Part shown: in pieces, positions 1-27,610 of the stretch
Layout: each line of letters starts with the position of its first letter
Numbering within the stretch: the stretch's first letter is position 1
Source: Patescibacteria group bacterium
Lineage (GTDB): Bacteria > Patescibacteriota > Microgenomatia > UBA8517
DNA: 60,984 nucleotides
Assembly: GCA_036381415.1 (NCBI GenBank)
Contig: DASVCV010000005.1
Span: forward strand, 1-60,984
Reading direction: 5' to 3'
Translations under genes and position numbers: made by a program
Notes under the pieces: model-generated
The model's input: the letters and a program-made list of their open reading frames with translations, nothing else
Told to the model about the DNA's origin: nothing
Databases searched by the model: none

Positions 1-2681
1 TTGGAGTTTTATTGCTTTTAGCACAAATTCTCTTCCCTCGAGGCCCCAGAGTGGCAAACGATTTTCCTCTTATCTCAAGTCAAGTTTTAAAAAGTAATTT
101 TTCTTTACCCTACATTTGGAGTGACAAAACTGCAGAGGGAATGGGGGAGTATGCTGGAGCTACACTTTGGTCATGGCCACTTAATTTTGTGTCTGGGATT
201 TTTGGAATTCTTAACTTTGGTTTTCCGACTATAGAACTTATATTTTTGATGGTTCCTTCCTTTGTAATCGCGGTTATTTCTGTGAGAAGGGTGTTGGATA
301 AATTTAAAATTGAAGAACCAGGCAAATCTATAGGGACCTTACTATATGTTACAACCACATATTTTTTGCTTTTAATTGATGGGGGGCAACTTTCTATTGC
401 TTTAACATATGCCTTTTTCCCCCTGGTATTTTTACTTTTTGTCAATTCTATTCATAGTTCTTTTAAGAAGAGAATAATTGCTGCTTTAGCAGTATCTGCA
501 CTTGGATTTTTAGATCTTAGGTTTGTATATCTGTTGGGAATTCTTATTTTTGTCCACTTTTTATACAACTTATTTTTAAGTGAAGATAGGAAAAAATTGT
601 TTTTTGGATACCTGTTTTCAGGATTCATAAGTGGAATAGTATTTGTATTACTCCATTTATATTGGATTTTACCTTTAGTATTTGTTAGGGATAACTTGCT
701 CCCTCCTTCATATGATGCTGGTATAAAAAGCTTTACTACTCTTTATCACTCTTTGGCACTTTTACAGCCGAATTGGTATGTAAATGTTTTTGGTAAAATT
801 TCTCCTTTGAGATTTGATTTTGTTTTAATTCCCATTTTAGTTTTTCTAGCGCCAATTTTGAAAAAGAAAGATAAAACGGTTGGATTTTGGCTTTTAGTTT
901 CGTTGATATCAATATTTTTAGCAAAAGGAACGGCACCGCCTTTTGGAGAAGTTTATGCGCTTATATATGCTAAAGTACCTGGTTTTAACTTGTTTAGAGA
1001 TTCAACCAAATTTTTCTTTTTGGTTGCACTTTCTTACTGTGTGCTATTGGCAATTGTAGTTAATCAGATATCAAAGAAAGTAAAAACAGCTCCTTTGTTT
1101 TTAATTTTCTACCTATTATTGTTGGTTTCTCCGGTTTACTTGGGTAAAATGACAGGAGTTTTTTCAAAGCCTGCATATCAAAGCGGTTACGAGAGTTTGA
1201 ACAGAGAATTGGAAAATGATTCACAGTTTGGTAGAGTTTTATGGATTCCTAGCAGGCCACCTTTAGGATATTCTGATCTAAATCATCCTTATGTGGAAGC
1301 ACTGAGAATGGTTATTGCAAGACCTTTTGCTATTGGAAGAGTGGGAGATTATGAATTATTTAATTTTTTAAGAGAGTCGCCATTTGTTGGACAAATCCTT
1401 AAAGTATCCTCTATTAGATATTTGGTTTATCCATACCCAGACACAAGAAGGGAAGATTTGAAGAAGGACAACATTGATTATTATCACTCATTTTTATCTC
1501 AGATATCAAAATTGCCGTGGGTAGAGGAGCTTCATAACTATGGAAGTGATTCTTTTCCCATTCCCCTATTAAAAGTTAAAGATAGCCAGGATCATTTATA
1601 TATATCTTCTAACTTGTTTGGAATTTTAGGGTCAGATGAAATTTATGAGAATTTGATGAAAGTTAAAGATTTTGATTTGTCTCGTAATGCATTAGTTTTC
1701 TTGGAGGAAAAGACGAATGCTAGCAAAAAATTTGCAGAGACTTTCGGAAGGATAGTTTTATATAACAAATCAGAGATAGATTTAAAGGGAAGTTTAGTAG
1801 ATTCTTCTTTATTACTTTTTCCTTCAAAAATATTAAATCTTGATCCGGACAGCTCTGGCTGGTGGAAAAGGGATGGACGGGATGTGTCAGCTTGGAGAAA
1901 CTTTATGCAGGATAAATATCAAATTGATAATTTGGATTTTGATTATGGTGGTGGTTGGGCGATAGCAGAAGGAAAGTTAAAGTTGAAATTAGACAAACTT
2001 AATATACAAAAGGGAGATATACTTCTTGCTCGTGTAATGAAGAGCAGCCGTGGAGGTAAGATAAATTTTATTGAGGGAGGTAAAAGTGTTGGAGTTTTAA
2101 GTACAAAAACTGATGGTACGCAAAAAATTAATATTAAACTATCTGGCTCTGTGGTACCCAAGTTTTTTACTTTTAATAGAGCCAGCTTTGATTGGGTTGA
2201 GGTTGGAAATTTAGATGAGGGTAAAGAAATTATTTTGGAGACTGAAGGGGATATTAATGTAGTTAATGCATTAGCAGTGATTCCAGCAAGTAAATGGAGT
2301 GAAATTGAAACTGAAGTTAAAAATTTAAGGAAAGAAGGGAAAATTTTAGAGTGGGATAAGATAAATAGCGGTAATTTAAGAGTTTTTGAAACTCCAAACA
2401 CAGTTAATCTTTCATACAAGGAAATAAATCCTACTCTCTATAAGATAAGTGTAAAGGGGATTACTAAGCCTGTTGTTATTGCTTTTTCTGAAACCTATGA
2501 TAATAATTGGCACCTTAATAATAGTGAAGGGTTATCACTTTATAGCCTTATAAACGGTTTTGAGGTAGAAAAAGATGGAGATTATATTTTGGAGTTTGCT
2601 CCTCAGAAGTATGTTGATGTTGGGCTAATTGGAACTTTGATGGGAATTTTGCTTGTAATATTGATATTGATTTTGTGTTGA
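1..2681 (+). CDS. Large polytopic membrane protein, AftD/YfhO-like GT-C glycosyltransferase candidate (5' end probably outside window)
   Basis: ORF track 12..2681 starts at a TTG and the frame stays open back to nt 3. Many hydrophobic helices in the N-terminal ~400 aa, then a large soluble domain and one C-terminal TM (LIGTLMGILLVILILILC). Architecture and the N-terminal W..G.G..P pattern resemble DUF3367/AftD- or YfhO-type GT-C enzymes; function is by resemblance only. Confidence 0.5.
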   Translation, partial: GVLLLLAQILFPRGPRVANDFPLISSQVLKSNFSLPYIWSDKTAEGMGEYAGATLWSWPLNFVSGIFGILNFGFPTIELIFLMVPSFVIAVISVRRVLDKFKIEEPGKSIGTLLYVTTTYFLLLIDGGQLSIALTYAFFPLVFLLFVNSIHSSFKKRIIAALAVSALGFLDLRFVYLLGILIFVHFLYNLFLSEDRKKLFFGYLFSGFISGIVFVLLHLYWILPLVFVRDNLLPPSYDAGIKSFTTLYHSLALLQPNWYVNVFGKISPLRFDFVLIPILVFLAPILKKKDKTVGFWLLVSLISIFLAKGTAPPFGEVYALIYAKVPGFNLFRDSTKFFFLVALSYCVLLAIVVNQISKKVKTAPLFLIFYLLLLVSPVYLGKMTGVFSKPAYQSGYESLNRELENDSQFGRVLWIPSRPPLGYSDLNHPYVEALRMVIARPFAIGRVGDYELFNFLRESPFVGQILKVSSIRYLVYPYPDTRREDLKKDNIDYYHSFLSQISKLPWVEELHNYGSDSFPIPLLKVKDSQDHLYISSNLFGILGSDEIYENLMKVKDFDLSRNALVFLEEKTNASKKFAETFGRIVLYNKSEIDLKGSLVDSSLLLFPSKILNLDPDSSGWWKRDGRDVSAWRNFMQDKYQIDNLDFDYGGGWAIAEGKLKLKLDKLNIQKGDILLARVMKSSRGGKINFIEGGKSVGVLSTKTDGTQKINIKLSGSVVPKFFTFNRASFDWVEVGNLDEGKEIILETEGDINVVNALAVIPASKWSEIETEVKNLRKEGKILEWDKINSGNLRVFETPNTVNLSYKEINPTLYKISVKGITKPVVIAFSETYDNNWHLNNSEGLSLYSLINGFEVEKDGDYILEFAPQKYVDVGLIGTLMGILLVILILILC

Positions 2682-2719
2682 ATCTGGTATTACAATGGTT
2701 GGGCTTAGAAATAGAATAA

Positions 2720-3478
2720 ATGACGAAAAAAATTGCTGTTTTAGGTGCTGGGGAAATAGGATCTTCTATTAAGAAGATAGCTGAAGTAGTTGGCTATAAG
2801 GTTTTTGTTAGAGAACTAAAGTATGATGAGATTAACGGTGAAGGCGTGGAAGCTCTTCATGTTTGTATTCCTTATAAAGGTGAACAGTTTATAGATTTTG
2901 TATCTAAGGCTGTAAAAGACTCAAAGGCAAAAATAGTTATAATTCATGGAACAGTTCCTCCTGGTATTACAAATAAGCTTGCTAAAAGAATTAAAATTCC
3001 TACTGCAAACTCTCCTGTAAGAGGAAACCATCCTGATTTGTACAAATCTATAAAGAGTGAGTTTGTAAAATATGTTGGAGGGGTAGATAAGAAGTCAACA
3101 AGACTGGCAATTAAACATTTGAGAGATTTAGGTATAAAGCATGTAGAAGACGGAGGATCTGCAATTAATACTGAACTAGGCAAGATGGTTAACATTTTAG
3201 GGTATGCATGGTCAATAATATTTTGTAAATGGGTAGATCAAATGTGTAAGGATTATAAAGCAGACTTTGATGTTGTTTATACCAAATTTACTGAAAGTTA
3301 TAATGACGGATATAAAAAAACTAGACCTAATGTGCATCAGCCAATTTTGAAACCTGTAAAAGGACCAATTGGAGGACATTGTGTAATTGCCGATACTATT
3401 CTTTTAGAGCAAGTTTATAAGAGTTCAATTGGTAAATTTATTCTTCAAAAAGATAAGGAATATAAGAAGGAAGTTTAG
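2720..3478 (+). CDS. Short NAD-binding nucleotide-sugar dehydrogenase-like protein
   Basis: N-terminal Rossmann motif KIAVLGAGEIGSS. GGHCV near the C-terminus resembles the catalytic-Cys motif GGSC of UDP-glucose/GDP-mannose dehydrogenases. At 252 aa it lacks the usual C-terminal domain. Confidence 0.45.
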   Translation: MTKKIAVLGAGEIGSSIKKIAEVVGYKVFVRELKYDEINGEGVEALHVCIPYKGEQFIDFVSKAVKDSKAKIVIIHGTVPPGITNKLAKRIKIPTANSPVRGNHPDLYKSIKSEFVKYVGGVDKKSTRLAIKHLRDLGIKHVEDGGSAINTELGKMVNILGYAWSIIFCKWVDQMCKDYKADFDVVYTKFTESYNDGYKKTRPNVHQPILKPVKGPIGGHCVIADTILLEQVYKSSIGKFILQKDKEYKKEV

Positions 3479-3490
3479 CCTTAGGTTTAG

Positions 3491-3496: not shown

Positions 3497-3503
3497 CTAA
3501 GGA

Positions 3504-4778
3504 ATGAGCAGATTAAAAAATATTTTTGGGACTGCTACTTTTAGACAATCTAGCTTAGTTTCTTCAGCAACGATTATAAATGGTATTTTAGGACTTGCCT
3601 TTTATATAACAACTGCAAGATTTTTAGGTCCATCCTTGTTTGGAGTTTTAGGTCTTGGTATTGCAATAGCAACAGCAGTATCTGATATTTCTGATTTTGG
3701 AATAAATGCTGGAATAGTTAGATTTGTTGGAAAGTATTCAAATAAACCATTAGTTGCGAATAAGTATTTAAAAATTTCATTGAAGATAAAAGGCGTTGTT
3801 GCGTTTAGTGTCTTGATTTTGGGATTTATAATAGCTCCCTTTTTGGCAACAAATATTTTTGGAAAGCCTGAATTATTATTACCAATTGAAATTGCCTTTG
3901 TTGGAGTTGGATTTACTCTTTTATATGGGTTTACAACTTCTGCACTTCAAGCCTTACAAAAATTTAAGGAGTGGAGTGTAATTCAAATAGGAACTAATTT
4001 ATTAAGATTGGTTCTAATTTTTCTTCTTTTTTCAGCAGGTGCACTGGGCCTAGTGAATTCAATGTTAATTTATATTTTAATGCCTTTGGCGGGTTTTGTA
4101 TTCGGACTTTTGCTTTTAAGAGAAAGGTTTTGGGAAGCAAAGGGAGAAAAGGGAAAACTAAAAGAACTTATTCATTTTAACAAGTGGGTGGCTGCTTTTA
4201 TTTTTGTATCTGCAATTTCTTCTAGGCTTGACACTTTTATATCAGCAAGATTACTTACTTCTGATGGTTTAGGAATTTATTCTGCTGCAACCCAGCTTAC
4301 TCAGATTGTTCCTCAAATTGCAGGAGCTTTGGGTACTGTAATTGCTCCTAAGATGGCTAGTATGACAGATATAAATAAACTGGCTAAATATTATAAAAAA
4401 GTTCAGGTAATGGTAGTTGGAATTGCTGGACTTGGGCTAATTGGAATCCCAATTGCTAGTTTTGTTATTCCCTATTTGTATGGAAACAAATATGAGGGAG
4501 CAATTCTAATTTTTGTCCTTCTATTTATTGCTAGTTTGATATTTTTGATTTCAATACCAATTCATAACGCAATAATTTACTATTTTTCATATCCTAAGCT
4601 TTTCTTGTGGTTATCAATTGGACACTTTTTAATAATATTTTTTGTTGGGTGGAATCTAATATCAACTTATGGGGCAATAGGGGCTGCCTTTTCTGTACTT
4701 ATTGGATCGTTGTTCAATTTTGTTGTTCCACTGGGGTGGCTAGTAAATAAAATTTACCGTAATGAAGAAAAAAAATAA
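3504..4778 (+). CDS. Wzx-type oligo/polysaccharide flippase (MOP superfamily)
   Basis: 424 aa and hydrophobic throughout, with roughly 12-14 helices. Length and N-terminal pattern are typical of polysaccharide flippases, and it lies in a glycosyltransferase cluster. Confidence 0.65.
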   Translation: MSRLKNIFGTATFRQSSLVSSATIINGILGLAFYITTARFLGPSLFGVLGLGIAIATAVSDISDFGINAGIVRFVGKYSNKPLVANKYLKISLKIKGVVAFSVLILGFIIAPFLATNIFGKPELLLPIEIAFVGVGFTLLYGFTTSALQALQKFKEWSVIQIGTNLLRLVLIFLLFSAGALGLVNSMLIYILMPLAGFVFGLLLLRERFWEAKGEKGKLKELIHFNKWVAAFIFVSAISSRLDTFISARLLTSDGLGIYSAATQLTQIVPQIAGALGTVIAPKMASMTDINKLAKYYKKVQVMVVGIAGLGLIGIPIASFVIPYLYGNKYEGAILIFVLLFIASLIFLISIPIHNAIIYYFSYPKLFLWLSIGHFLIIFFVGWNLISTYGAIGAAFSVLIGSLFNFVVPLGWLVNKIYRNEEKK

Positions 4779-5466
4779 AGTAATTGTAGTAATGCCGGCT
4801 TACAATGCTGAAAAAACACTAAAGAAAACTTTTGCAGACATTCCTAAAAAAATTGTGGGTGAAATAATTCTAGTTGATGATGGGAGTCATGATAGAACAG
4901 TGGAGGCTGCAAGAAAGCTGAAGATAAAAACGTTTGTACATCCTCAAAACAGAGGATATGGAGGCAACCAAAAAACCTGCTATACGCTTGCTTTAAATGA
5001 TGGAGCAACAATAGTTGTTATGATTCATCCTGACTACCAATATGACAGTACTCTCACTTACGAGCTTATAAATCCAATACTAGAGGGACGGTTTGATATT
5101 ATGCTTGGATCAAGGATAAGAACTAGGAAAGAAGTTTTGAAAGGAGGGATGCCTGCTTATAAATATTTTGCTAATAGATTTTTGACAATTGTAGAAAATA
5201 TTGTTTTGGGACTGAATTTGTCAGAATATCATACAGGATTTAGGGCATTTGATAGCAGAGTACTAAAAACTCTTCCATTTCATAAATTCTCAGATGATTT
5301 TGTTTTTGATCAGCAGATTTTAATTGCAGCCAGCAAAAAAGGTTTTAGGATAGGAGAAACTCCTGTTCCTGTAAGATATTTTTCTGATTCATCCTCAATT
5401 AATTTCTTAAGGTCGTTTAAGTATGGATTAGAAACTTTAATTTCTTTGGCAACATTGGGTATATGA
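4762..5466 (+). CDS. GT2 glycosyltransferase, polyprenyl-phosphate sugar synthase (DPM1/GtrB/ArnC)-like
   Basis: VIVVMPAYNAEKTL ... LVDDGSHDRT ... HPDYQYD, i.e. GT-A fold motifs with a DxD-like element. Confidence 0.7.
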   Translation: MKKKNKVIVVMPAYNAEKTLKKTFADIPKKIVGEIILVDDGSHDRTVEAARKLKIKTFVHPQNRGYGGNQKTCYTLALNDGATIVVMIHPDYQYDSTLTYELINPILEGRFDIMLGSRIRTRKEVLKGGMPAYKYFANRFLTIVENIVLGLNLSEYHTGFRAFDSRVLKTLPFHKFSDDFVFDQQILIAASKKGFRIGETPVPVRYFSDSSSINFLRSFKYGLETLISLATLGI

Positions 5467-6287
5467 CAATTTCCACTCACACAATAGTTTGTAATGAAGA
5501 AAGATATATTTGGTACTCACTTATGAGTGTAGCTAACTATGTTGAGAAACTTATTGTTTGGGATACAGGAAGTACTGATTCAACAGTTGAGATTATTAAA
5601 GAGGTAGAGAAAAAACTAGGTGATAAGCTTGAATTTAGACAATTGGGAAAGGTTGGACCGAGTGAGCTGACCGAACTTAGGCAAAAGATGTTGGCGGCAA
5701 CTAAATCTGATTGGTTTATCATTCTCGATGGGGATGAGGTTTGGTGGGACTCTTCAATTAGAAAGCTTGTAAAAACTATTAATAGAGATGGAGAGAAACT
5801 AAACTGCCTAGTTTCTCCGTACTACAACTTAATTGGAGACATATATCATTACCAGGAGGATTCTATAAGTAAATATGTAATAGATGGGAGGAAAGGGTTT
5901 TTAAACATAAGGGCTGTGAATACAAAAATCCCGGGACTTAACGTAGTTAATCCATATCCAAAAGAAGCCTATGTTAATGAAAATGGAATATTTCTTCAGG
6001 AAATGCCTAAGAAGGAAAGGAAGTTAGTGGAGGCAAAGTATTTACATTTTACACACCTACTTCGATCTGGAAATGTTTCTAAAAATAGTGAGGCAACTTT
6101 AAGGGGAAAGAAATACAAATATGAAATAGGTAATGAGTTTCCACTAGACTTCTATTATCCTGAAGTTTTTTTTAGAGAACGGCCTAATAACGTAAATTCA
6201 GTTTGGGAGATAAATGATGCAGGCTATTATTTGAGAGCAAATGTGGAGACTGCACTTAGAAAACTAAAGAGGAAATTTATGAAATGA
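5463..6287 (+). CDS. GT2-like glycosyltransferase
   Basis: VCNEERYI ... WDTGSTDST ... ILDGDE. Paralogous pattern to ORF 10203..10946. 4-nt ATGA overlap with the upstream gene. Confidence 0.55.
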   Translation: MTISTHTIVCNEERYIWYSLMSVANYVEKLIVWDTGSTDSTVEIIKEVEKKLGDKLEFRQLGKVGPSELTELRQKMLAATKSDWFIILDGDEVWWDSSIRKLVKTINRDGEKLNCLVSPYYNLIGDIYHYQEDSISKYVIDGRKGFLNIRAVNTKIPGLNVVNPYPKEAYVNENGIFLQEMPKKERKLVEAKYLHFTHLLRSGNVSKNSEATLRGKKYKYEIGNEFPLDFYYPEVFFRERPNNVNSVWEINDAGYYLRANVETALRKLKRKFMK

Positions 6288-9436: not shown

Positions 9437-9441
9437 AATAT

Positions 9442-12379: not shown

Positions 12380-12384
12380 ATAAA

Positions 12385-16136: not shown

Positions 16137-16139
16137 ATT

Positions 16140-17239: not shown

Positions 17240-17241
17240 AA

Positions 17242-21563: not shown

Positions 21564-22675
21564 AAATACTTCTTGATGCAAGGTTGTATGGATTGGAAAA
21601 TGCAGGAATTGGTAGATATGTTGTTAATTTAGTAGGGGAATTGTCAAAAATAGATTCTAAAAATGAATATATAATACTTCTTGGCAAAAAATACTTTGAG
21701 AGTTTAGATTTACCTTCTAACTGGAAGAAAGTTTTGGTAGAATCAAAACACTACAGTGTTTCAGAACAAATAAAACTGCCAAAAATTATTGCAAAGTACA
21801 ATCCTGATTTAGTTCACTTTCTTCATTTTAATGTGCCAATTTTATATAGAGGAAAGTATGTTGTGACAATACATGATTTACTAATGCAGACTCATAGAGG
21901 AGTGGGAGCAACTACTCTTCCTATATATTTATATTACCCAAAGCACCTTGGATCCAAATTTGTTTTTAGAAAAGGAGTGAAAAGCGCAAAAAGAATTATA
22001 GTTCCGTCGAGTGCAGTAAGAGATGAAGTCTGTTCCTACTTTAAATTGGATTGCAACAAAGTAGAGGTTATTTATGAGGGAGTGGATGATGCAATAACTG
22101 GAAAAATATCTAAATCTAAAATTGAGACACCATATTTCCTGTATGTAGGGAGTGCATACCCACATAAGAATTTAGAAAGAGCAATTCAAGCTGCAACATT
22201 ATTAAAGACAACTTTAGCAATTGCTTGTGCAAGGAGTGTGTTTTTAGAAAGACTTGAGAGGTTGGTACAAAAAAATAACGCAAGTGAGTTTGTAAAGATT
22301 TTGGGATTTGTTCCTGATAATGAATTGGGAGGACTTTATAAGAATTCATTAGGATTTGTGTTTCCATCACTTTCAGAAGGGTTTGGACTTCCTGGACTTG
22401 AAGCTATGGCAAGGGGAACAGTGGTAGCTGCATCAGATACTCCTGTTTTTAAGGAGATTTATAAAGAGAATGCAGTTTATTTTGATCCTTATAGTATGGA
22501 AAGCATTAAAGAGGCGATGGAGAAAATTGTAAATATGGATGAAAGTGCAAGAAGCAGGATGATTCTGAAAGGAAAAGATTTTGTAAAAAGGTACAGTTGG
22601 ACTAAAATGGCCAAAGAAACTTTAGATATATATGAAAAGACAGCTAAAAGTAGCCTTGGTGTACGATCGGGTTAA
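21560..22675 (+). CDS. GT4 glycosyltransferase
   Basis: EGFGLPGLEAMARGTVVAAS signature. ATGA overlap with the upstream gene. Confidence 0.75.
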   Translation: MKILLDARLYGLENAGIGRYVVNLVGELSKIDSKNEYIILLGKKYFESLDLPSNWKKVLVESKHYSVSEQIKLPKIIAKYNPDLVHFLHFNVPILYRGKYVVTIHDLLMQTHRGVGATTLPIYLYYPKHLGSKFVFRKGVKSAKRIIVPSSAVRDEVCSYFKLDCNKVEVIYEGVDDAITGKISKSKIETPYFLYVGSAYPHKNLERAIQAATLLKTTLAIACARSVFLERLERLVQKNNASEFVKILGFVPDNELGGLYKNSLGFVFPSLSEGFGLPGLEAMARGTVVAASDTPVFKEIYKENAVYFDPYSMESIKEAMEKIVNMDESARSRMILKGKDFVKRYSWTKMAKETLDIYEKTAKSSLGVRSG

Positions 22676-23717
22676 TAAATGGGGTGGAGCAGAAAGAGTG
22701 CTTTTAGTACTCCATGAACTTTTTCCAGATGCACCACTTTTCACGTCAGTTTATTCACAAGATAGGGCAGAGTGGGCTGAAGTTTTTCCTAATGTAATCC
22801 CCTCTTTCTTACAAAAAATTCCATTTGCCAAAGATAATCATGAATATTTTGCAAGTTTAATGCCACTTGCTTTTAGGTCGCACAATATCAAAGGATATGA
22901 TGTTGTTATTTCAGTTACTTCTGAGTTTGCAAAAGCTGTTAGAACAGATGGTATTCATATTTGCTACTGTCTTACTCCAACTCGTTATTTATGGAGTTCA
23001 TTTGATGACTACTTTAAAAATCCAATGTTAAGAATAGGGAGTACTCCCCTTATTTCATTTTTAAAAAACTGGGATAGGAAGGTTGCACAAGAACCTGATG
23101 CAATTGTTTCAATATCCAAGGAAGTCAGAAAGAGAGTTAAAGACTACTATGGCAGAAATTCCAAAATTATTTTTCCCCCAGTGGAGGTGGAAAAATTTAA
23201 CAGAAGAAAGGGAAGTAAAAGAAAAGGAGATTTTTATTTAGTAGTTTCCAGATTAGTTTCATATAAGAAAGTGGATCTTGTAATTGAGGTGTTTAATGAG
23301 TTGGGGTATCCCCTTATTATTGTTGGAAAAGGAAAAGAAGAGAAGAATTTAAAAAAAATAGCTAACCGAAATATTAAGTTTGCTAGTGAACTTACTGATA
23401 ACAAACTTAGATATTATTATTCTAACTGCAAGGCTTTGGTATTCCCTCAGTTGGAAGATTTTGGAATAGTGGCAGTGGAAGCACAGGCAGCAGGTGCTCC
23501 TGTTATTGCATATAAGAAAGGTGGAGCACTCGATACTGTAATTGATGGAAAGACTGGAATATTTTTTAAGAAACAAAATAGAGAATCTTTAATAGAAGCT
23601 ATAAAGAGATTTGAAAAGATGAAGTTTGGACAGGGTACAATTGTAGCAAATGCAAAGAGATTTTCAGTTAAAAGGTTTAAAAAGGAGTTCTTAACAATAG
23701 TAGAGTCTATATGTTAG
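22632..23717 (+). CDS. GT4 glycosyltransferase
   Basis: EDFGIVAVEAQAAGAPVIA signature. Track start overlaps the upstream gene by 44 nt; in-frame TTG 22656 or GTG 22659 are alternatives. Confidence 0.7.
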   Translation: MKRQLKVALVYDRVNKWGGAERVLLVLHELFPDAPLFTSVYSQDRAEWAEVFPNVIPSFLQKIPFAKDNHEYFASLMPLAFRSHNIKGYDVVISVTSEFAKAVRTDGIHICYCLTPTRYLWSSFDDYFKNPMLRIGSTPLISFLKNWDRKVAQEPDAIVSISKEVRKRVKDYYGRNSKIIFPPVEVEKFNRRKGSKRKGDFYLVVSRLVSYKKVDLVIEVFNELGYPLIIVGKGKEEKNLKKIANRNIKFASELTDNKLRYYYSNCKALVFPQLEDFGIVAVEAQAAGAPVIAYKKGGALDTVIDGKTGIFFKKQNRESLIEAIKRFEKMKFGQGTIVANAKRFSVKRFKKEFLTIVESIC

Positions 23718-23730
23718 TATTACAATTACT

Positions 23731-24825
23731 ATGAAAATTGTGATTTTCTGCGGTGGGCATGGTACCCGTCTTTGGCCAATAAGTAGAGTCTCTTTCCCCA
23801 AACCTTTTGTCCCTCTTTTGAAAGAGAAATCCCTTTTTCAAATAACTTATGAAAGATACCGCAAAGATTATTCCCCAAAAGATATATTCATTTCAACTGA
23901 AGATAAATATTTAAAGTTTGTAAAAGAACAGGCTCCTGAGGTTCCTAAAGAAAATATAATACTAGAACCAGAGCGAAGAGATACTTTGGCTGCTTATGGG
24001 CTTGTTACTATATTTATGAATAAGCGTTTTCCTGGGGAACCTGTTTTATTTTCCTGGGCAAAGCATTTAATTAGAAGAGAAAGAGTGTTTTTGGATGCAG
24101 TGAAGGCAGCTGGAAAACACACTAAAGAGACTGGAGTGGGTGTTTCTATTGACTCAAAACCAGAATTTCCAAGTGTTAATAATGGCTGGGTTAAAAAGGG
24201 TACAAGTTTGGGATTTTTGGGAGGATCAGTTTACTACAAGCTAGAAAAGCAAGTTGAAAAGCCGGAGTTGGCTTTAGCTAAAAGACTATTTTTGTCTGGA
24301 AGCTGGCTAATTCATACAGGTTATAAAGTTTGGGATACTGAGAAACTTCTTGGATACTACAAACAGTATCAGCCTGAAATGTATAAAGGTCTAATGAAAA
24401 TTTCAGCTGCAATGGGAACTAAGCTTTGGAAAACAGAGCTTTATAGACAGTACCATGCTTTCCCTAAGACATCCATAGACTATGGAATTTTAGAAAAGCT
24501 ACCAGCTGACTCATTTGTAACTTTAGAGGCTGATATGGGGTGGGAAGATGTGGGAATATCTTGGGAAACATACTACAAAGGTTTAGTTACTTCTACACTT
24601 AAGGATGATACTGTTGAAGAAGGTGGAGTGGATACAGAGTACTTAGATGCTGAAAGGAATTTAGTAATAGGTACTAAGGGCAAGATGATAGGAATTGTTG
24701 GAGTTTCTGACATAGCAGTTATTGATACTCCAGATGGTCTTTTGATTTGTAAGCTGTCAGATAGCCAAAAAGTTAAAAAACTATATGAAATGATTGAGAA
24801 GAAGAATTCCAAATATGTTGATTAA
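23731..24825 (+). CDS. Mannose-1-phosphate guanylyltransferase (GDP-mannose pyrophosphorylase)-like nucleotidyltransferase
   Basis: N-terminal FCGGHGTRLWPISR...PKPF, the signature of the NTP-sugar transferase/ManC family. No PMI domain. Confidence 0.7.
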   Translation: MKIVIFCGGHGTRLWPISRVSFPKPFVPLLKEKSLFQITYERYRKDYSPKDIFISTEDKYLKFVKEQAPEVPKENIILEPERRDTLAAYGLVTIFMNKRFPGEPVLFSWAKHLIRRERVFLDAVKAAGKHTKETGVGVSIDSKPEFPSVNNGWVKKGTSLGFLGGSVYYKLEKQVEKPELALAKRLFLSGSWLIHTGYKVWDTEKLLGYYKQYQPEMYKGLMKISAAMGTKLWKTELYRQYHAFPKTSIDYGILEKLPADSFVTLEADMGWEDVGISWETYYKGLVTSTLKDDTVEEGGVDTEYLDAERNLVIGTKGKMIGIVGVSDIAVIDTPDGLLICKLSDSQKVKKLYEMIEKKNSKYVD

Positions 24826-24833
24826 CTAAAACT

Positions 24834-25469
24834 ATGTTTGAGTTTATAAAACGCCTTATTGATATAACCCTTTCCTTACTTCTTCTTATTATTTTTTCTC
24901 CAGTTATAATTGCATCTGCAATTGCAATTAAACTAACGTCTCCCGGGCCTGTATTTGCAGATACTCCAAAGAGAGTTGGCAAAGATAATAAACTATTTTA
25001 CCCTTTTAAATTTAGATCAATGATAGCTAATGCTCATGAGCTATTAAGAACTGATCCAAAGTTTAAAGCTCTGTATGAAGAGTATAAAAAATCAAGTTAT
25101 AAGCTGCATACTGATCCTAGGGTTACTCCTGTTGGAAAGTTTATTAGAAAACACTCTATTGATGAAATACCTCAATTTATAAACGTATTAAAAGGAGAAA
25201 TGAGCATTGTGGGCCCTAGGCCATATTATCCTGAGGAATTAAAGGAGCAGCTTGAAAAATACCCAATGGTAACCAAGTATTTAAATGATGTGATATCTGT
25301 GAGGCCTGGAATAACTGGATATTGGCAAGTATCTGGAAGAAGTGATGTAAATTTTGATAAAAGGATAGAAATGGATGCCTACTATGCTAGAAAAAGATCG
25401 ATACTTCTTGATTTATCTATACTTGCTAAAACTCCTTGGGCAATGATATCTGGAAAAGGTGCTGTATAA
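24834..25469 (+). CDS. Small monotopic phosphoglycosyl transferase (bacterial sugar transferase; PglC/WbaP C-domain-like), pathway initiator
   Basis: KRLIDITLSLLLL re-entrant helix, FKFRSM, DEIPQFINVLKGEMSIVGPRP, RPGITGYWQVSGRS. Confidence 0.8.
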   Translation: MFEFIKRLIDITLSLLLLIIFSPVIIASAIAIKLTSPGPVFADTPKRVGKDNKLFYPFKFRSMIANAHELLRTDPKFKALYEEYKKSSYKLHTDPRVTPVGKFIRKHSIDEIPQFINVLKGEMSIVGPRPYYPEELKEQLEKYPMVTKYLNDVISVRPGITGYWQVSGRSDVNFDKRIEMDAYYARKRSILLDLSILAKTPWAMISGKGAV

Positions 25470-25471
25470 AA

Positions 25472-25480
25472 TGTTAATAT
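25472..25480 (+). promoter_or_regulatory. Extended -10 TGtTAATAT, 6 nt upstream of ATG 25487
   Basis: tgttaatat, then tagaac, then ATG. Confidence 0.4.
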
Positions 25481-25486
25481 TAGAAC

Positions 25487-27610
25487 ATGCCTGACGAGAC
25501 GCCCACAATTCCTCATATAGATTTAAGTGAAGATAAAGCTAAAGAAGGAGAAATGCTTGAAGTAAATCCAACTGTTGATCCTGAGGCAGCTAGTGTAGAG
25601 GCAAAGGTTGAGGAAAATACACCTGAGATTGGTGAAGAAGCTATCAAAGATGATGTTAAAGTAGAAAAAGAAGATCCGGTTGTAATTAACCATACTGCAA
25701 CTAATGGAGGATATATGGGAACACCAAGAAGAAAAAAGATAAAGAAAATATTAGGAATAACAGCATTAGCTGTTGTTATTTTTATTGCAATATTAGCTCT
25801 TGCAGTTGGAATTCCTGGTTATTCTGTTTATAAAAAAGTACAAGTAGTTATGGCTGATGGAAATTCTTTAAAAGATGCATTCAGCAAACAAAACATTGGT
25901 GATATTAAAACAGGGCTTACTAAAATTGAAAAAGATTTAGGTTCACTTCAAGGTTCATACAATGCCTTAGGTTGGTTAAAGGTTGTTCCTTTTGTTGGAC
26001 CTTATTGGAAAGATGGAGATGCTGCAATTAAAGGCGGAATATATGGAGTTCAGGCAGGTCAGATGGGAGTAAAAACCTTAGAGCCTTATGCTGACATTAT
26101 TGGATTTGGGGGAGACAAGGCAAAAAGTGGTGAAGAGACTGCAAATGACCGTATGGAGTTTGTGGTAAAAACAATCAGCCAGATTGCACCACAAGTAGAA
26201 GAAATTGGAAAGAAAGCAACTCAGGCAAAAAATGAGATAGATAAAATAGATGCAAATAGATATCCGGAAACTTTTAAGGGTAAAAAGATTAGGGAAAACA
26301 TAAAGAAGGTTCAAGAATTGGTTGATGAGGGAACTTCATTTTTAAGTCAGAGCAAGCCATTACTAGATGCTGCTCCAAGCTTACTAGGAATTGATTCACC
26401 TAAAACTTACTTAGTTCTTTTCCAAAATGATAAGGAACTTCGTCCGACAGGAGGATTTATAACAGCATATTCAATAATGACTGTTAGTAAGGGTAAATTT
26501 GAGCCAGTATCTTCAAATGATATTTATAATCTAGATAAGTCATATGTTCCAAATGTTGCCGCCCCTTCTCCAATTGTTAAATATATTGCGGGTCCATACA
26601 CCATTAACCGAAACTTAAGGCTAAGAGATATGAATTGGGATCCTGACTATAAAACTGCAATGGAACTTTTCAGTAAAGAAGCAAAGAAAGCTGGGGTGAC
26701 TGGAATTGATGGAATAATAGCAGTAGATACTTCAGTTGTTGTAAATATCTTAAATGTAATTGGACCAGTTGGAGTTCCTGGATTTGGAAACTTTAGTACC
26801 GAAATTGTTCCACAATGCAATTGTCCTCAGGTTATATTTGAACTAGAAAGTTTTGCAGATGTAGAAGGATCAATTGTTTGGGATCAAAATGATCCAACTA
26901 AAATTATTTATGCCCCACCTAATTTTGATAATAGGAAGAAGATTGTTGGACCTTTGATGAATTCAGTACTTAGAAATGCTTTGGGACAACCTAAGGAGAA
27001 GATTGCTTCTTTATTCCAGGCTGGGTGGGATTCAGTAACTCAAAAACATGTTCTTTTGTATATGTTTGATGAGAAAACCCAAGAAGGCGCTGAAGCATTT
27101 AATATTGCAGGAAGAATGAAAGATTATGATGGAGACTATCTTCATATAAATGATGCAAACTTGGGGGGAAGAAAAGCAAACCTGTATGCTACCCAGGAAG
27201 TTGTTCAGGATGTAAAAGTGGCAGGTGATGGATCAGTTGAAAAGACTGTGACAATTACTTATAAAAATCCTCAGGGATATGATGGATGGCTTAATTCAGT
27301 TCTTCCAACTTGGACAAGAGTGTATGTACCAAAAGGATCAACTCTTATTTCATCTGACGGGTTTGATGATAAAGGTGAGACTTATGAGGAGCATGGAAAG
27401 ACAGTGTTTTCAGGCGGGTTTAAGTTAAGGCCACAAGGAGTTGTAAAGATAACTTTAAAATATAAACTACCATTTAAGGTAAAAGGGGAATACAAGCTTC
27501 TTGTTCAGAAACAAGCAGGAACCGGTTCTCCGCTTTTCTCTGTTAATATAGGAAGACAAAAAGATGAGGGGTATCTTCTAACAGATAAAGAATACAGATT
27601 TAAGATTTGA
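25487..27610 (+). CDS. DUF4012-like surface protein (acidic N-terminus, one TM, large extracytoplasmic domain)
   Basis: TM at ILGITALAVVIFIAILALAVGI. The motif LVLFQNDKELRPTGGFITAY matches the N-x-E-x-R-x-TGG core that I recall for DUF4012. Confidence 0.55.
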   Translation: MPDETPTIPHIDLSEDKAKEGEMLEVNPTVDPEAASVEAKVEENTPEIGEEAIKDDVKVEKEDPVVINHTATNGGYMGTPRRKKIKKILGITALAVVIFIAILALAVGIPGYSVYKKVQVVMADGNSLKDAFSKQNIGDIKTGLTKIEKDLGSLQGSYNALGWLKVVPFVGPYWKDGDAAIKGGIYGVQAGQMGVKTLEPYADIIGFGGDKAKSGEETANDRMEFVVKTISQIAPQVEEIGKKATQAKNEIDKIDANRYPETFKGKKIRENIKKVQELVDEGTSFLSQSKPLLDAAPSLLGIDSPKTYLVLFQNDKELRPTGGFITAYSIMTVSKGKFEPVSSNDIYNLDKSYVPNVAAPSPIVKYIAGPYTINRNLRLRDMNWDPDYKTAMELFSKEAKKAGVTGIDGIIAVDTSVVVNILNVIGPVGVPGFGNFSTEIVPQCNCPQVIFELESFADVEGSIVWDQNDPTKIIYAPPNFDNRKKIVGPLMNSVLRNALGQPKEKIASLFQAGWDSVTQKHVLLYMFDEKTQEGAEAFNIAGRMKDYDGDYLHINDANLGGRKANLYATQEVVQDVKVAGDGSVEKTVTITYKNPQGYDGWLNSVLPTWTRVYVPKGSTLISSDGFDDKGETYEEHGKTVFSGGFKLRPQGVVKITLKYKLPFKVKGEYKLLVQKQAGTGSPLFSVNIGRQKDEGYLLTDKEYRFKI

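What the first reader, a model, noticed from the sequence alone, without database searches (positions are those of the whole stretch)
1..27610. ~25-kb single-strand glycan-assembly operon: Wzx/Wzy-type pathway plus an extracytoplasmic GT-C stage
Seen: about 27 consecutive same-strand genes with gaps of 0-60 nt, many with ATGA/TAATG start-stop overlaps.
The set has every part of a lipid-linked glycan pathway:
- initiating phosphoglycosyl transferase (24834)
- GDP-mannose supply (23731)
- 6 GT4 and 6 GT2 enzymes
- 3 methyltransferases and an acetyltransferase
- Wzx-like flippase (3504) and Wzy/ligase-like protein (18116)
- three large GT-C-like membrane proteins (1, 10910, 12385)
- a DUF4012 protein
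Inference: an organism with no sign of LPS or outer-membrane genes in this window spends over 40% of it on one glycoconjugate, perhaps a surface polymer, glycolipid, or protein/pilus/S-layer glycosylation. The acceptor is unknown, and so is the role of the three GT-C proteins. This is the best candidate here for an uncharacterised system.
Basis: partly seen in the sequence, partly recalled or inferred. Interest (0 to 1): 0.7.

Follow-up and report, generated by a model that had tools for sequence, protein, structure and literature searches.

The report
Conserved Microgenomates envelope-glycan gene cluster
The first 28 kb of this contig, from an uncultured ultra-small bacterium (Patescibacteria, Microgenomates group), is the larger part of a roughly 38-kb, uncharacterised gene cluster that is kept in the same gene order across the group and most likely builds a surface sugar polymer partly inside and partly outside the cell membrane.

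Summary
Positions 3-27610 hold 26 back-to-back + strand genes.
- a small priming phosphoglycosyl transferase (PGT) and ManC
- 6 GT4 and 6 GT2 glycosyltransferases
- 3 methyltransferases and a hexapeptide acetyltransferase
- Wzx, a Wzy_C protein and DUF4012
- 3 GT-C membrane glycosyltransferases

New findings:
- The window is a whole contig from a Microgenomates bacterium, and the cluster is cut at its 5' end. Relatives carry at least 10 kb more upstream, including a fourth GT-C that is AftD-like (1125-1187 aa).
- Gene 1 has no Pfam domain, but its AlphaFold model (pLDDT 87) best matches mycobacterial arabinofuranosyltransferase AftD.
- Two of the GT2s resemble polyprenyl-phosphate-sugar synthases, which make the donors that GT-C enzymes need.
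- The gene order is conserved across about 70 species-level genomes at only 27-60% protein identity. This is therefore a lineage-wide core cluster, not a variable serotype locus.
- No Wzz/PCP, LCP, OPX or GtrA gene was found in the window or in the flanks examined.
- PGT-DUF4012 is a conserved gene pair, and in one case also occurs in an actinobacterial polysaccharide cluster.
- The 194-nt "gap" is the 5' part of a frameshifted acetyltransferase gene.

I found no paper on this cluster. I rate it a new variant of a known kind. The acceptor and the role of DUF4012 remain unknown.

The parts
3..2681 (+). Gene 1: AftD-like GT-C glycosyltransferase (892 aa seen). Its N-terminus is cut by the contig end. 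It has about 8-9 TM helices, a large outer domain with CBM-like beta-sandwiches, and a C-terminal TM helix.
   Evidence: No Pfam hit. Weak NCBIfam MmpA match at residues 270-428. AF2 model has pLDDT 87 and pTM 0.84. Best Foldseek PDB match is AftD 6w98 (E 1.4e-11, TMq 0.50), followed by AglB, STT3, ArnT and CBM6. Asp20 in the first outer loop and DGGQ126-129 are invariant. Homologues are 40-47% identical across Woese-, Davies- and Amesbacteria.
2720..3478 (+). 252-aa soluble protein with an NAD-binding-like N-terminus. It is only weakly similar to nucleotide-sugar dehydrogenases and its function is unassigned.
   Evidence: Pfam 2-Hacid_dh_C E 0.0085, below cut-off. TIGR03026 E 1.3e-5, far below cut-off. 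A homologue was found only in the closest relative.
3504..4778 (+). Wzx-type flippase (MOP family), about 10 TM helices.
   Evidence: Polysacc_synt 1.3e-27 and Polysacc_synt_3 9.8e-22. TM count. Present after gene 1 in 51 of 57 loci.
4762..5466 (+). GT2a: soluble GT2 that resembles polyprenyl-phosphate-sugar synthases.
   Evidence: PF00535 3.5e-21. NCBIfam PpgS 6.7e-20, AglJ 1.1e-18 and Dol-P-hexose transferase 6e-13, all below their cut-offs.
5463..6287 (+). GT2b glycosyltransferase.
   Evidence: PF00535 8.2e-16. Conserved in 52 of 57 loci.
6284..7087 (+). SAM-dependent methyltransferase a.
   Evidence: Methyltransf_11 4.2e-21.
7045..7770 (+). SAM-dependent methyltransferase b. The real start is probably ATG 7087.
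   Evidence: Methyltransf_23/11 about 1e-15. Alternative starts. Conserved in 45 of 57 loci.
7767..8492 (+). GT2c: polyprenyl-phosphate-hexose synthase-like GT2 with no TM helix. It is the probable supplier of the lipid-linked monosaccharide donor for the GT-C enzymes.
   Evidence: PF00535 1.7e-34. NCBIfam AglJ 2.8e-33, PpgS 2.3e-21, Dol-P-hexose transferase and ArnC. Best PDB sequence match is P. furiosus Dol-P-Man synthase 5mlz (4.8e-17, full catalytic domain), then ArnC and GtrB. Conserved in 48 of 57 loci at a median 56% identity.
8504..9436 (+). GT4a glycosyltransferase.
   Evidence: Glycos_transf_1 7.7e-18. Conserved in 50 of 57 loci.
9442..10206 (+). SAM-dependent methyltransferase c.
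   Evidence: Methyltransf_11 3.6e-20.
10203..10946 (+). GT2d glycosyltransferase.
   Evidence: PF00535 2.7e-18. Conserved in 45 of 57 loci.
10910..12379 (+). GT-C glycosyltransferase of the PMT_2/ArnT-like type, about 8-11 TM helices, with a 'LDE' motif in the first outer loop. The start is probably ATG 10922.
   Evidence: PMT_2 6.8e-16 (59.3 bits, cut-off 26.1), PMT 2.1e-7 and TMEM260-like 5e-5. Agl23, mannosyltransferase and Pmt matches are weak. Sequence. Conserved in 43 of 57 loci.
12364..13752 (+). Second PMT_2/GT87-like GT-C glycosyltransferase, about 9 TM helices. The start is probably ATG 12385.
   Evidence: Own PMT_2 hit is 2e-4, below cut-off. 5 of 9 orthologues hit PMT_2, best 2.7e-9. 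An orthologue hits GT87 at 5.9e-5. DQHFPG in loop 1 is invariant.
13816..14910 (+). GT4b glycosyltransferase.
   Evidence: Glycos_transf_1 3.6e-25.
14919..16136 (+). GT4c glycosyltransferase.
   Evidence: Glycos_transf_1 4e-32.
16140..16732 (+). Hexapeptide-repeat acetyltransferase, frameshifted. Codons 1-58 are in the frame of ATG 16140 and the rest is in the frame of 16331. The break is at an A4 run (about 16311-16316) where A5 would restore the conserved sequence AGVKIGKGSAIHMWA.
   Evidence: Hexapep 3.2e-15 on 16331-16732. Homologues are about 200 aa, and both halves align in two frames.
16733..17239 (+). 168-aa protein with N- and C-terminal TM helices, of unknown function, conserved next to the acetyltransferase.
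   Evidence: No Pfam or NCBIfam hit. TM prediction. Homologues are in the same position in relatives.
17161..18141 (+). GT2e glycosyltransferase with a C-terminal TM helix. The start is probably ATG 17242.
   Evidence: PF00535 2.4e-28..
18116..19489 (+). Wzy_C-family membrane protein, about 10 TM helices. It could be a repeat-unit polymerase, a ligase or an O-oligosaccharyltransferase; these were not distinguished.
   Evidence: Wzy_C 4e-11, 43.4 bits against cut-off 31.7. No PDB sequence relative. Present in 26 of 29 loci.
19499..20695 (+). GT4d glycosyltransferase.
   Evidence: Glyco_trans_1_4 7.6e-20. TIGR03087-like 1.4e-46, below cut-off. Present in 29 of 29 loci.
20688..21563 (+). GT2f glycosyltransferase with a C-terminal TM helix.
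   Evidence: PF00535 6.1e-26. Present in 26 of 29 loci.
21560..22675 (+). GT4e glycosyltransferase.
   Evidence: Glycos_transf_1 1.7e-27. Present in 29 of 29 loci.
22632..23717 (+). GT4f glycosyltransferase.
   Evidence: Glycos_transf_1 5.4e-31. Present in 28 of 29 loci.
23731..24825 (+). Mannose-1-phosphate guanylyltransferase (ManC type, without the isomerase domain), which supplies GDP-mannose.
   Evidence: NTP_transferase 4.6e-20 plus ManC_GMP_beta-helix 2.6e-11. TIGR01479 5.1e-54, below cut-off, covering model positions 3-349 of 467. Present in 29 of 29 loci.
24834..25469 (+). Small monotopic phosphoglycosyl transferase (PglC/WbaP-C-terminal type, 211 aa), the priming enzyme.
   Evidence: Bac_transf 1.4e-61. 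EPS_sugtrans 4.7e-76 and WbaP 3.8e-72, both below full-length cut-offs. One hydrophobic helix. Present in 29 of 29 loci and immediately upstream of DUF4012 in 55 of 58.
25487..27610 (+). DUF4012 protein (707 aa). It has a disordered N-terminus, one TM helix, a long helical stalk (residues 83-299), an alpha/beta core and a C-terminal beta-sandwich. It is probably an extracytoplasmic assembly or attachment factor; its function is unknown.
   Evidence: DUF4012 4e-23. Homologues are 52-87% identical across Woesebacteria and relatives. AF2 pLDDT 78. No Foldseek PDB hit below 1e-3; two LCP structures appear among weak hits. hhalign against LCP is negative. Actinobacterial homologues sit in polysaccharide clusters.
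27607..28152 (+). RecO. It overlaps the DUF4012 stop by 4 nt and is a conserved neighbour, but it is not a glycan-pathway protein.
   Evidence: RecO_N 7.1e-23. Follows DUF4012 in 54 of 55 loci.

Best explanation
Positions 3-27610 are the 3' three-quarters of a conserved 'superoperon' of at least 38 kb in Microgenomates (Patescibacteria). It assembles one lipid-linked envelope heteroglycan in two compartments.

Proposed sequence (family assignments are shown; the order and the chemistry are inferred):
1. On the cytoplasmic face, the small PGT (24834) primes polyprenyl phosphate.
2. The GT4 enzymes and the non-synthase GT2 enzymes extend the chain, using GDP-mannose from ManC (23731) and other nucleotide sugars.
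3. Three methyltransferases and the hexapeptide acetyltransferase decorate the chain.
4. Wzx (3504) flips the polyprenyl-PP-oligosaccharide.
5. The Wzy_C protein (18116) polymerises it or transfers it to its acceptor.
6. In parallel, two DPMS/ArnC/GtrB/PpgS-like GT2s (7767, 4762) make polyprenyl-P-monosaccharides.
7. Outside the membrane, the GT-C enzymes use these donors to elongate or branch the glycan. They are gene 1 (AftD-like, with CBM-like domains that suggest a glycan acceptor), 10910, 12385, and a second AftD-like enzyme encoded just upstream of the contig end in relatives.
8. DUF4012, anchored by one TM helix and held away from the membrane on a helical stalk, acts late on the PGT-derived end of the polymer, in attachment or assembly.

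The product is probably a mannose-containing, O-methylated wall- or membrane-anchored polymer. It appears to be a fixed feature of the lineage's monoderm-type envelope. The logic resembles mycobacterial lipomannan/arabinan or streptococcal/lactococcal wall-polysaccharide assembly more than a variable capsule.
For: - Family and fold assignments.
- Complementarity. The whole 28 kb holds only one PGT, one Wzx and one Wzy_C. Wzx lies in the 5' half; the PGT and Wzy_C lie in the 3' half. The halves need each other.
- Tight packing with no real intergenic gap and no excess of terminator-like sites.
- Co-conservation of the 5' half. Of 57 species-level loci with at least 9 kb downstream of the gene-1 homologue, counts are: Wzx 51, GT2b 52, GT2c 48, GT4a 50, GT2d 45, GT-C 43 and 37. 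An AftD-like gene lies within 5 kb upstream in 50 of 59 loci.
- Co-conservation of the 3' half. Of 29 loci with at least 9 kb upstream of DUF4012, counts are: PGT 29, ManC 29, GT4 28-29, GT2f 26, Wzy_C 26.
- In GCA_040960095.1 the whole stretch from gene 1 to DUF4012 is colinear over 28.3 kb.
- The order holds even where gene-1 identity falls to 27-28%, for example in Blackburnbacteria.
- GT-C enzymes as a class use polyprenyl-phosphate-linked donors (established knowledge; AftD paper). Two synthase-like GT2s are present.
- An Asp in the first outer loop is invariant in gene 1 (D20) and in 12385 (D48), and 10910 has a DE motif there. This parallels the essential D41 of AftD.
- CBM-like hits for the outer domain of gene 1.
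- Uniform GC of 0.32-0.39, so the cluster looks native rather than a transferred island.
Against: - No biochemical, transcript or glycan data exist.
- No sugar specificity is assignable. Every NCBIfam match is below its equivalog cut-off.
- Wzy_C cannot be resolved into polymerase, ligase or O-oligosaccharyltransferase.
- No chain-length regulator, LCP ligase or small GtrA-type flippase for the polyprenyl-P-sugars was found.
- Three distant genomes (L023, L072, L077) lack the middle module from GT2b to the two PMT_2-like GT-Cs. That part is therefore separable and may decorate rather than build the core.
- The acetyltransferase is frameshifted in this contig.
- The synteny samples are the best-matching loci, so they lean towards relatives that keep the cluster.
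Confidence: 0.6

Rival explanations
1. It is a protein O-glycosylation system. The lipid-linked oligosaccharide would be transferred en bloc to an S-layer protein, pilin or other surface protein by the Wzy_C protein acting as a PglL/PilO/WsaB-type O-oligosaccharyltransferase. The PMT_2-type GT-Cs would add O-mannose-type residues to proteins.
For: - The Wzy_C family includes O-oligosaccharyltransferases (established knowledge), and the hit here is family-level only.
- PMT_2, PMT and TMEM260-like hits on 10910.
- No chain-length regulator and no LCP were found.
- GT2c's best NCBIfam match is AglJ, an S-layer glycoprotein glycosylation enzyme, though below cut-off.
- Sortase and pilus families are enriched in CPR (PMC6744442).
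Against: - Gene 1 and its upstream paralogue resemble AftD, including CBM-like beta-sandwiches, which points to a glycan acceptor.
- DUF4012 occurs in actinobacterial EPS/CPS-type clusters alongside a tyrosine kinase or an ABC transporter.
- About 11 cytoplasmic GTs is many for a protein-linked glycan.
- No target protein gene lies in the cluster.
Confidence: 0.15
2. Two or more separate pathways merely sit side by side. Gene 1 (with the upstream AftD-like gene) would be a conserved anchor, followed by a separable middle module running from Wzx to the two PMT_2-like GT-Cs, which would modify some other glycan or protein. A 3' module (GT4b to DUF4012) would make a Wzy-type polymer.
For: - In L023, L072 and L077 the gene-1 homologue is followed almost directly by GT4b-GT4c-acetyltransferase-GT2e-Wzy_C, without the middle module.
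- RecO, an unrelated gene, is just as tightly linked, so linkage alone does not prove a shared function.
Against: - Only one PGT, one Wzx and one Wzy_C are present, split between the halves.
- The halves are contiguous, without gaps, in nearly all loci and in the fully colinear relative.
Confidence: 0.15
3. It is an ordinary Wzx/Wzy capsule or exopolysaccharide locus of the strain-variable kind seen in many bacteria, with nothing lineage-specific.
For: - The component families are the standard ones.
- DUF4012 next to a priming transferase is already seen in the Bifidobacterium longum EPS locus (PMC5412050).
Against: - Gene order and content are conserved across about 70 species-level genomes at 27-60% identity. 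This is the opposite of the hypervariability typical of capsule and O-antigen loci.
- Three to four GT-C enzymes are present, including AftD-like ones.
- No Wzz/CpsCD, OPX or LCP genes were found.
Confidence: 0.1

Closest known systems
Mycobacterial/corynebacterial lipomannan-lipoarabinomannan and arabinogalactan assembly (PimA/PimB' GT4, Ppm1 GT2 polyprenyl-P-mannose synthase, GT-C enzymes PimE/MptA/MptB/Emb/AftA-D)
   Same: - The same two-compartment logic: cytoplasmic GT4 steps fed by GDP-mannose, a GT2 that makes a polyprenyl-P-sugar, then several GT-C enzymes outside the membrane.
- Gene 1's model best matches AftD (E 1.4e-11), including the CBM-like outer domains.
- The upstream paralogue in relatives hits Pfam GT-C_AftD.
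- An orthologue of 12385 weakly hits GT87, the PimE family.
   Different: - Priming here is by a PGT on polyprenyl-P, with Wzx and Wzy_C, not on phosphatidylinositol or by WecA/ABC-type export.
- No decaprenyl-phospho-arabinose genes (UbiA, DprE1/2) were seen in the window.
- Sequence identity to AftD is about 10-11%.
- The host is a Patescibacterium with no mycolic-acid envelope.
Dual-pathway wall polysaccharides of Gram-positive cocci (Lactococcus CWPS, Enterococcus Epa, streptococcal rhamnose polysaccharides) and the three-component GtrA/GtrB/GtrC-type glycosylation (CsbB/GtcA/YfhO, GacI/GacL)
   Same: - A lipid-linked polymer is made inside the cell and then modified outside by GT-C enzymes.
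- The GT-C enzymes use polyprenyl-P-sugars made by a GtrB/ArnC-like GT2.
- GT2c matches ArnC and GtrB structures by sequence.
   Different: - No GtrA/GtcA-family flippase, no LCP ligase and no rhamnose genes were found.
- Three to four GT-Cs are present rather than one, and two of them are very large and AftD-like.
- The synthase-like GT2s lack the C-terminal TM helices of GtrB/ArnC.
Wzx/Wzy-dependent O-antigen, capsule and EPS loci
   Same: PGT, Wzx, a Wzy_C-family protein, a block of GT2/GT4 enzymes, and modifying methyl- and acetyltransferases.
   Different: - No Wzz/PCP, tyrosine kinase, OPX or LCP genes.
- The locus is conserved across a whole lineage instead of varying between strains.
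- It has an added GT-C stage.
DUF4012-containing EPS/CPS clusters of Actinobacteria (Bifidobacterium longum 105-A cps/eps; Rhodococcus and Streptomyces plasmid clusters)
   Same: - DUF4012 lies next to the priming transferase in B. longum (PMC5412050) and in a Rhodococcus qingshengii plasmid.
- It co-occurs with Wzy_C, hexapeptide acyltransferases and GTs.
   Different: - Those clusters also carry Wzz, a tyrosine kinase or ABC-transporter genes, and they lack the GT-C set.
- Identity to the window protein is only about 22-23%.
- The function of DUF4012 is unknown there too.

Membership tests
Wzx/Wzy-dependent polysaccharide pathway | Initiating polyprenyl-phosphate phosphoglycosyl transferase | tested here: met
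   Bac_transf 1.4e-61 at 24834-25469; EPS_sugtrans 4.7e-76.
Wzx/Wzy-dependent polysaccharide pathway | Wzx (MOP-family) flippase | tested here: met
   Polysacc_synt 1.3e-27 at 3504-4778.
Wzx/Wzy-dependent polysaccharide pathway | Wzy repeat-unit polymerase | tested here: inconclusive
   There is a Wzy_C-family hit (43.4 bits, cut-off 31.7). The family also holds ligases and O-oligosaccharyltransferases, and there is no PDB relative.
Wzx/Wzy-dependent polysaccharide pathway | Chain-length regulator (Wzz/PCP, CpsC/D) and, in monoderms, an LCP ligase | tested here: not met
   No such Pfam hit on any ORF scanned in the window, nor among the precomputed Pfam lists of flanking genes in relatives. 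The rest of the genome was not available.
GT-C glycosyltransferases (AftD-like) - gene 1 | GT-C fold: a multi-TM domain with an outer-facing soluble domain | tested here: met
   AF2 model pLDDT 87. Foldseek top hits are AftD (1.4e-11), AglB, STT3 and ArnT, all with probability 1.00.
GT-C glycosyltransferases (AftD-like) - gene 1 | Conserved acidic residue in the first outer loop (essential D41 in AftD) | tested here: met
   D20 is invariant in 49 sequences and lies between helix 1 and helix 2 of the model. No residue-level structural superposition was available.
GT-C glycosyltransferases (AftD-like) - gene 1 | Sequence membership of Pfam GT-C_AftD (PF11847); arabinofuranosyl transfer from decaprenyl-P-arabinose | tested here: not met
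   Gene 1 has no Pfam hit. Only the upstream paralogue in a relative hits PF11847, and gene 1 shares a 25%-identical 141-residue stretch with it. No DPA-synthesis genes were seen in the window. The sugar transferred is not testable here.
GT-C PMT_2/ArnT-like - 10910 and 12385 | Profile match above the curated cut-off and an acidic motif in outer loop 1 | tested here: met
   10910: PMT_2 59.3 bits against 26.1, with an LDE motif. 12385: its own hit is below cut-off, but 5 of 9 orthologues match (best 2.7e-9) and D48 is invariant.
Three-component extracytoplasmic glycosylation (GtrB-type synthase + GtrA-type flippase + GT-C) | GT2 polyprenyl-phosphate-sugar synthase | tested here: inconclusive
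   GT2c matches DPMS 5mlz at 4.8e-17, plus ArnC and GtrB. GT2a matches PpgS and AglJ. All are below the NCBIfam equivalog cut-offs, and neither protein has a TM helix. Activity is untested.
Three-component extracytoplasmic glycosylation (GtrB-type synthase + GtrA-type flippase + GT-C) | Small GtrA/GtcA-family flippase | tested here: not met
   No GtrA hit in the window. A 105-108-aa, roughly 4-TM protein lies between the two AftD-like genes in relatives but has no family match.
LCP (LytR-CpsA-Psr) phosphotransferases - considered for DUF4012 | LCP fold and sequence profile | tested here: inconclusive
   Foldseek lists 3pe5_A (TMt 0.40) and Cps2A 3tep (TMt 0.31) at E 0.02-0.04, probability 0.98-0.99. 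3pe5 was confirmed as an LCP by sequence. Against this, profile searches against PDB and Pfam find no LCP, and hhalign against a 5-sequence LCP alignment gives a probability of 0.1 or less, even after adding actinobacterial DUF4012 proteins. Treat it as a weak lead only.

The most novel reading that the evidence does not exclude
Microgenomates would carry a lineage-defining, probably indispensable wall polymer of their own, comparable in status to arabinogalactan/lipomannan in Mycobacteriales or teichoic acids in Firmicutes. A hybrid assembly line not described elsewhere would build it: PGT/Wzx/Wzy_C, plus four GT-C enzymes of which two are AftD-like. DUF4012 would be a previously unrecognised attachment enzyme that does the job of the missing LCP ligase in Patescibacteria and many Actinobacteria.
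Probability: 0.2. Interest if true: 0.8.

Novelty: new variant of a known kind. Interest (0 to 1): 0.55.

Why it matters
- **Genome cost.** Related Microgenomates assemblies contain single contigs of about 0.75-0.92 Mb, and such bacteria are thought to depend on other cells. Keeping 35 or more genes (at least 38 kb, roughly 4-5% of a genome of that size) in fixed order across the lineage implies that the product matters for their envelope or for host contact.
- **Experimental handles.** The cluster offers concrete targets for a group with almost no experimental envelope biology: a predicted mannose-rich, methylated polymer to look for in enrichments, and a conserved surface marker for labelling or capture.
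- **AftD-like enzymes outside Actinobacteria.** AftD-type GT-C enzymes have so far been reported only from Actinobacteria. This family is large: 8,789 representatives at 50% identity match the profile.
- **A testable context for DUF4012.** This domain was previously flagged as enriched in CPR and Gram-positive bacteria but has no known function (PMC6744442). The conserved PGT-DUF4012 pair gives it a setting in which it can be tested.

Tried and rejected
- **DUF4012 as a divergent LCP ligase.** Two weak Foldseek hits and a by-eye motif resemblance suggested it. A profile search against PDB, a Pfam scan of 40 members at E up to 10 and three hhalign runs all failed (probability 0.1 or less). One of those runs used a widened alignment with four actinobacterial DUF4012 proteins. 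I kept it only as a low-probability lead.
- **Tracing the source contig for more upstream sequence.** The window is the whole 60,984-bp contig. An exact look-up found only a 5-kb Logan copy with the same edge, and the DUF4012 protein is not on record.
- **The small membrane protein upstream of gene 1 in relatives as a GtrA-type flippase.** It has no family match.
- **Sequence searches of PDB** for 10910, Wzy_C and the 12385 profile found nothing usable.
- **Assigning sugar specificities from NCBIfam.** All matches are far below the equivalog cut-offs.
- **Literature searches** for this cluster in CPR/Patescibacteria/Woesebacteria found nothing specific.
- **The MmpA (trehalose-lipid delivery) match to gene 1.** It scores 51.7 bits against a cut-off of 210 and covers only residues 270-428. 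The AftD-like paralogue also aligns across residues 291-416, so this looks like a shared membrane segment and I did not treat it as membership.
- **Horizontal-transfer island.** Rejected, because GC is uniform and synteny is lineage-wide.

Full report
**1. What is in the sequence**

The window is 60,984 bp with a uniform GC of 0.32-0.39. It equals the full length of its contig: the window's own gene-1 protein is recorded with a longest contig of 60,984 bp.

From position 3 to 28152 there are 27 consecutive + strand ORFs. With plausible start codons, neighbouring genes overlap or are at most 63 nt apart, and six junctions are 4-nt overlaps.

The only large gap, 16137-16330, is not intergenic. 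It encodes the first 58 codons of the hexapeptide acetyltransferase in a different frame from the rest of the gene (16331-16732). Homologues are about 200 aa. An A4 run at about 16311-16316 would restore the conserved sequence AGVKIGKGSAIHMWA if it were A5.

Promoter-like and terminator-like sites within 1-20000 do not exceed shuffled controls (54 against 73.7 ± 8.5; 12 against 11.8 ± 3.4).

**2. Gene assignments**

| Class | Start coordinates |
|---|---|
| GT2 (6) | 4762, 5463, 7767, 10203, 17161, 20688 |
| GT4 (6) | 8504, 13816, 14919, 19499, 21560, 22632 |
| SAM methyltransferases (3) | 6284, 7045, 9442 |
| Hexapeptide acetyltransferase | 16331 |
| Wzx (Polysacc_synt, 1.3e-27) | 3504 |
| Wzy_C (43.4 bits, cut-off 31.7) | 18116 |
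| ManC-type guanylyltransferase | 23731 |
| 211-aa Bac_transf phosphoglycosyl transferase (1.4e-61) | 24834 |
| DUF4012 (4e-23) | 25487 |
| RecO | 27607 |

- 10910 is a PMT_2-type GT-C (6.8e-16).
- 12364/12385 is below the cut-off itself. It is a GT-C by orthologue evidence: 5 of 9 orthologues hit PMT_2 (best 2.7e-9), one hits GT87, and a DQHFPG motif in loop 1 is invariant.
- 2720-3478 and 16733-17239 remain unassigned.

The rest of the window carries housekeeping genes:
- a dcw cluster: MraZ, MraW, a PBP, Ddl, a Mur ligase, MraY, FtsW, MurG, FtsQ, FtsA and FtsZ
- two tRNA synthetases, a second FtsW/RodA-family gene, ParB, signal peptidase and one tRNA-Val

No outer-membrane, LPS, Wzz, LCP or OPX genes were found.

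**3. Gene 1 is an AftD-like GT-C**

- The 892-aa product has no Pfam domain.
- It belongs to a well-conserved family of 870-980-aa proteins named only from Woese-, Davies- and Microgenomates bacteria.
- An AlphaFold model built on 49 sequences is confident (pLDDT 87, pTM 0.84).
- Its best PDB match is mycobacterial arabinofuranosyltransferase AftD (6w98, E 1.4e-11, TMq 0.50). Next come the oligosaccharyltransferases AglB and STT3, then ArnT. CBM6-type modules match the C-terminal beta-sandwiches.
- An invariant Asp (D20) lies in the first outer loop. This is the position of the essential D41 of AftD.
- The family profile finds 8,789 representatives at 50% identity in 1.84 billion proteins, 1,778 of them at E ≤ 1e-30.

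**4. Donor supply for the GT-C stage**

- GT2c (7767) matches Pyrococcus dolichyl-phosphate-mannose synthase over its whole catalytic domain (5mlz, 4.8e-17), then ArnC and GtrB. It also matches the NCBIfam models AglJ, PpgS and Dol-P-hexose transferase.
- GT2a (4762) matches PpgS and AglJ.
- All these matches are below equivalog cut-offs, so the sugar is unknown.
- Mannose is my inference. It rests on the conserved ManC and on the PMT_2/GT87 flavour of the GT-Cs.

**5. The cluster is truncated here and conserved across the lineage**

Upstream of gene-1 homologues, relatives encode the following:
- GT4, GT2, GT2-methyltransferase fusion and methyltransferase genes
- a 1125-1187-aa protein that hits Pfam GT-C_AftD and is a distant paralogue of gene 1
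- a 105-108-aa multi-TM protein

In GCA_040960095.1 the stretch from gene 1 to DUF4012 is colinear over 28.3 kb, with 52-83% protein identity.

A scan of one genome per GTDB species returned 72 loci. All are Microgenomates-type or unnamed Patescibacteria. Some records are titled 'uncultured Gammaproteobacteria', which their gene content contradicts.

Conservation downstream of gene 1, among 57 loci with at least 9 kb downstream:

| Gene | Loci |
|---|---|
| Wzx | 51 |
| GT2b | 52 |
| Methyltransferase b | 45 |
| GT2c | 48 |
| GT4a | 50 |
| GT2d | 45 |
| GT-C (PMT_2) | 43 |
| GT-C b | 37 |

The last two counts are limited by the 10-kb flank. An AftD-like gene lies within 5 kb upstream in 50 of 59 loci.

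Conservation upstream of DUF4012, among 29 metagenome loci with at least 9 kb upstream:

| Gene | Loci |
|---|---|
| PGT | 29 |
| ManC | 29 |
| GT4f / GT4e / GT4d | 28 / 29 / 29 |
| GT2f | 26 |
| Wzy_C | 26 |
| GT2e | 21 |

The PGT is the immediate upstream neighbour of DUF4012 in 55 of 58 loci, and RecO follows DUF4012 in 54 of 55.

The order persists where gene-1 identity is only 27-28%. Three distant genomes lack the middle module (GT2b to the two PMT_2-like GT-Cs).

This pattern is the opposite of the strain-level variability typical of capsule and O-antigen loci (general knowledge).

**6. DUF4012**

- Its model (pLDDT 78) shows a disordered N-terminus, one TM helix, a long helical stalk, an alpha/beta core and a beta-sandwich.
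- No PDB structure matches below E 1e-3. Two LCP-family structures appear among weak hits (3pe5_A with TMt 0.40, and 3tep with TMt 0.31). 3pe5 was confirmed as an LCP by sequence.
- Profile-sequence and profile-profile tests do not support LCP homology.
- Context is informative. DUF4012 follows the priming transferase in the B. longum EPS locus (PMC5412050) and on a Rhodococcus qingshengii plasmid, where export is by an ABC transporter.
- In other Rhodococcus and Streptomyces clusters it sits with Wzy_C, hexapeptide acyltransferases, GTs and a tyrosine kinase.
- Méheust et al. listed the family as enriched in CPR and Gram-positive bacteria, with no function (PMC6744442).
- My inference is that it acts on the PGT-derived, lipid-linked end of the polymer, independent of the export route.

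**7. Mechanism proposed**

Family assignments are shown; the order and the chemistry are inferred.
1. PGT priming.
2. Cytoplasmic extension by GT4 and GT2 enzymes using GDP-mannose and other nucleotide sugars.
3. Methylation and acetylation.
4. Flipping by Wzx.
5. Polymerisation or transfer by Wzy_C.
6. Outside the membrane, elongation or branching by three GT-Cs (four with the upstream gene) using polyprenyl-P-sugars from GT2c and GT2a.
7. Late assembly or attachment involving DUF4012.

One argument for a single pathway is that the whole region has just one PGT, one Wzx and one Wzy_C, split between the two halves.

**8. Comparison, novelty and verdict**

- The closest functional analogues are mycobacterial LM/LAM/arabinan assembly and the dual-pathway wall polysaccharides of Gram-positive cocci.
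- It is not a member of either. There is no phosphatidylinositol or DPA chemistry, no rhamnose genes, and no LCP or GtrA.
- It also fails the chain-length-regulator and ligase features of canonical Wzx/Wzy systems.
- All parts belong to known superfamilies, so this is a new variant of a known kind.
- Its interest lies in lineage-wide conservation in very small genomes, in AftD-like enzymes outside Actinobacteria, and in the conserved PGT-DUF4012 pair.
- I found no publication on it.
- Interest 0.55. Confidence in the main model 0.6.

Noticed in passing
window 16137-16732: The hexapeptide acetyltransferase is split by a frameshift at an A-run (about 16311-16316; A4 where A5 would restore the conserved sequence). 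This is either an assembly error in a homopolymer or a real pseudogene. It also explains the only apparent 194-nt gap in the cluster.
   Followed up: yes
window 27607-28152, and loci L079-L158: RecO overlaps the DUF4012 stop codon by 4 nt and follows DUF4012 in 54 of 55 metagenome loci. In 22 of those 55 loci a class II tRNA synthetase gene (HGTP_anticodon type) also lies within 2 kb. A DNA-repair gene is thus fixed at the end of a glycan operon, for reasons unknown.
   Followed up: partly
window 28142-28915 (- strand): A NAGPA-type phosphodiester glycosidase ('uncovering enzyme'-like, PF09992 1.6e-12) is encoded convergently right after the cluster. It is present in the closest relative (L005) but in only 1 of 55 more distant loci. 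It could trim a phosphodiester-linked sugar on the same polymer.
   Followed up: partly
L002 5958-9844; L003 6317-10004 (upstream of gene-1 homologues, outside the window): A second AftD-like GT-C (1125-1187 aa; PF11847 in one relative) is followed by a 105-108-aa, roughly 4-TM protein with no family match. These lie just before gene 1 in relatives and are missing here only because the contig ends. The small protein is a candidate flippase for polyprenyl-P-sugars.
   Followed up: partly
loci L009, L012, L013 and many others: Many GTDB-representative MAG records that carry this Microgenomates cluster are titled 'uncultured Gammaproteobacteria bacterium' (binchicken/SRP co-assemblies). Their gene content and similarity indicate Patescibacteria, so the record titles look like placeholder mislabels.
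   Followed up: no
window 36929-51712: A compact division and cell-wall (dcw) cluster: MraZ, MraW, a PBP transpeptidase, then a divergent M23 peptidase, Ddl, a Mur ligase on the - strand, MraY, FtsW, MurG, FtsQ-like, FtsA and FtsZ. A DNA N6/N4 methyltransferase follows directly after FtsZ (51719-52420).
   Followed up: no
L005 16495-21069 (- strand, relative GCA_040960095.1): A 1524-aa protein with Laminin_G_3, fn3 and SH3_3 domains, likely a surface or adhesion protein, lies a few kb downstream of the cluster in the closest complete relative. The window has no counterpart at the same place.
   Followed up: no
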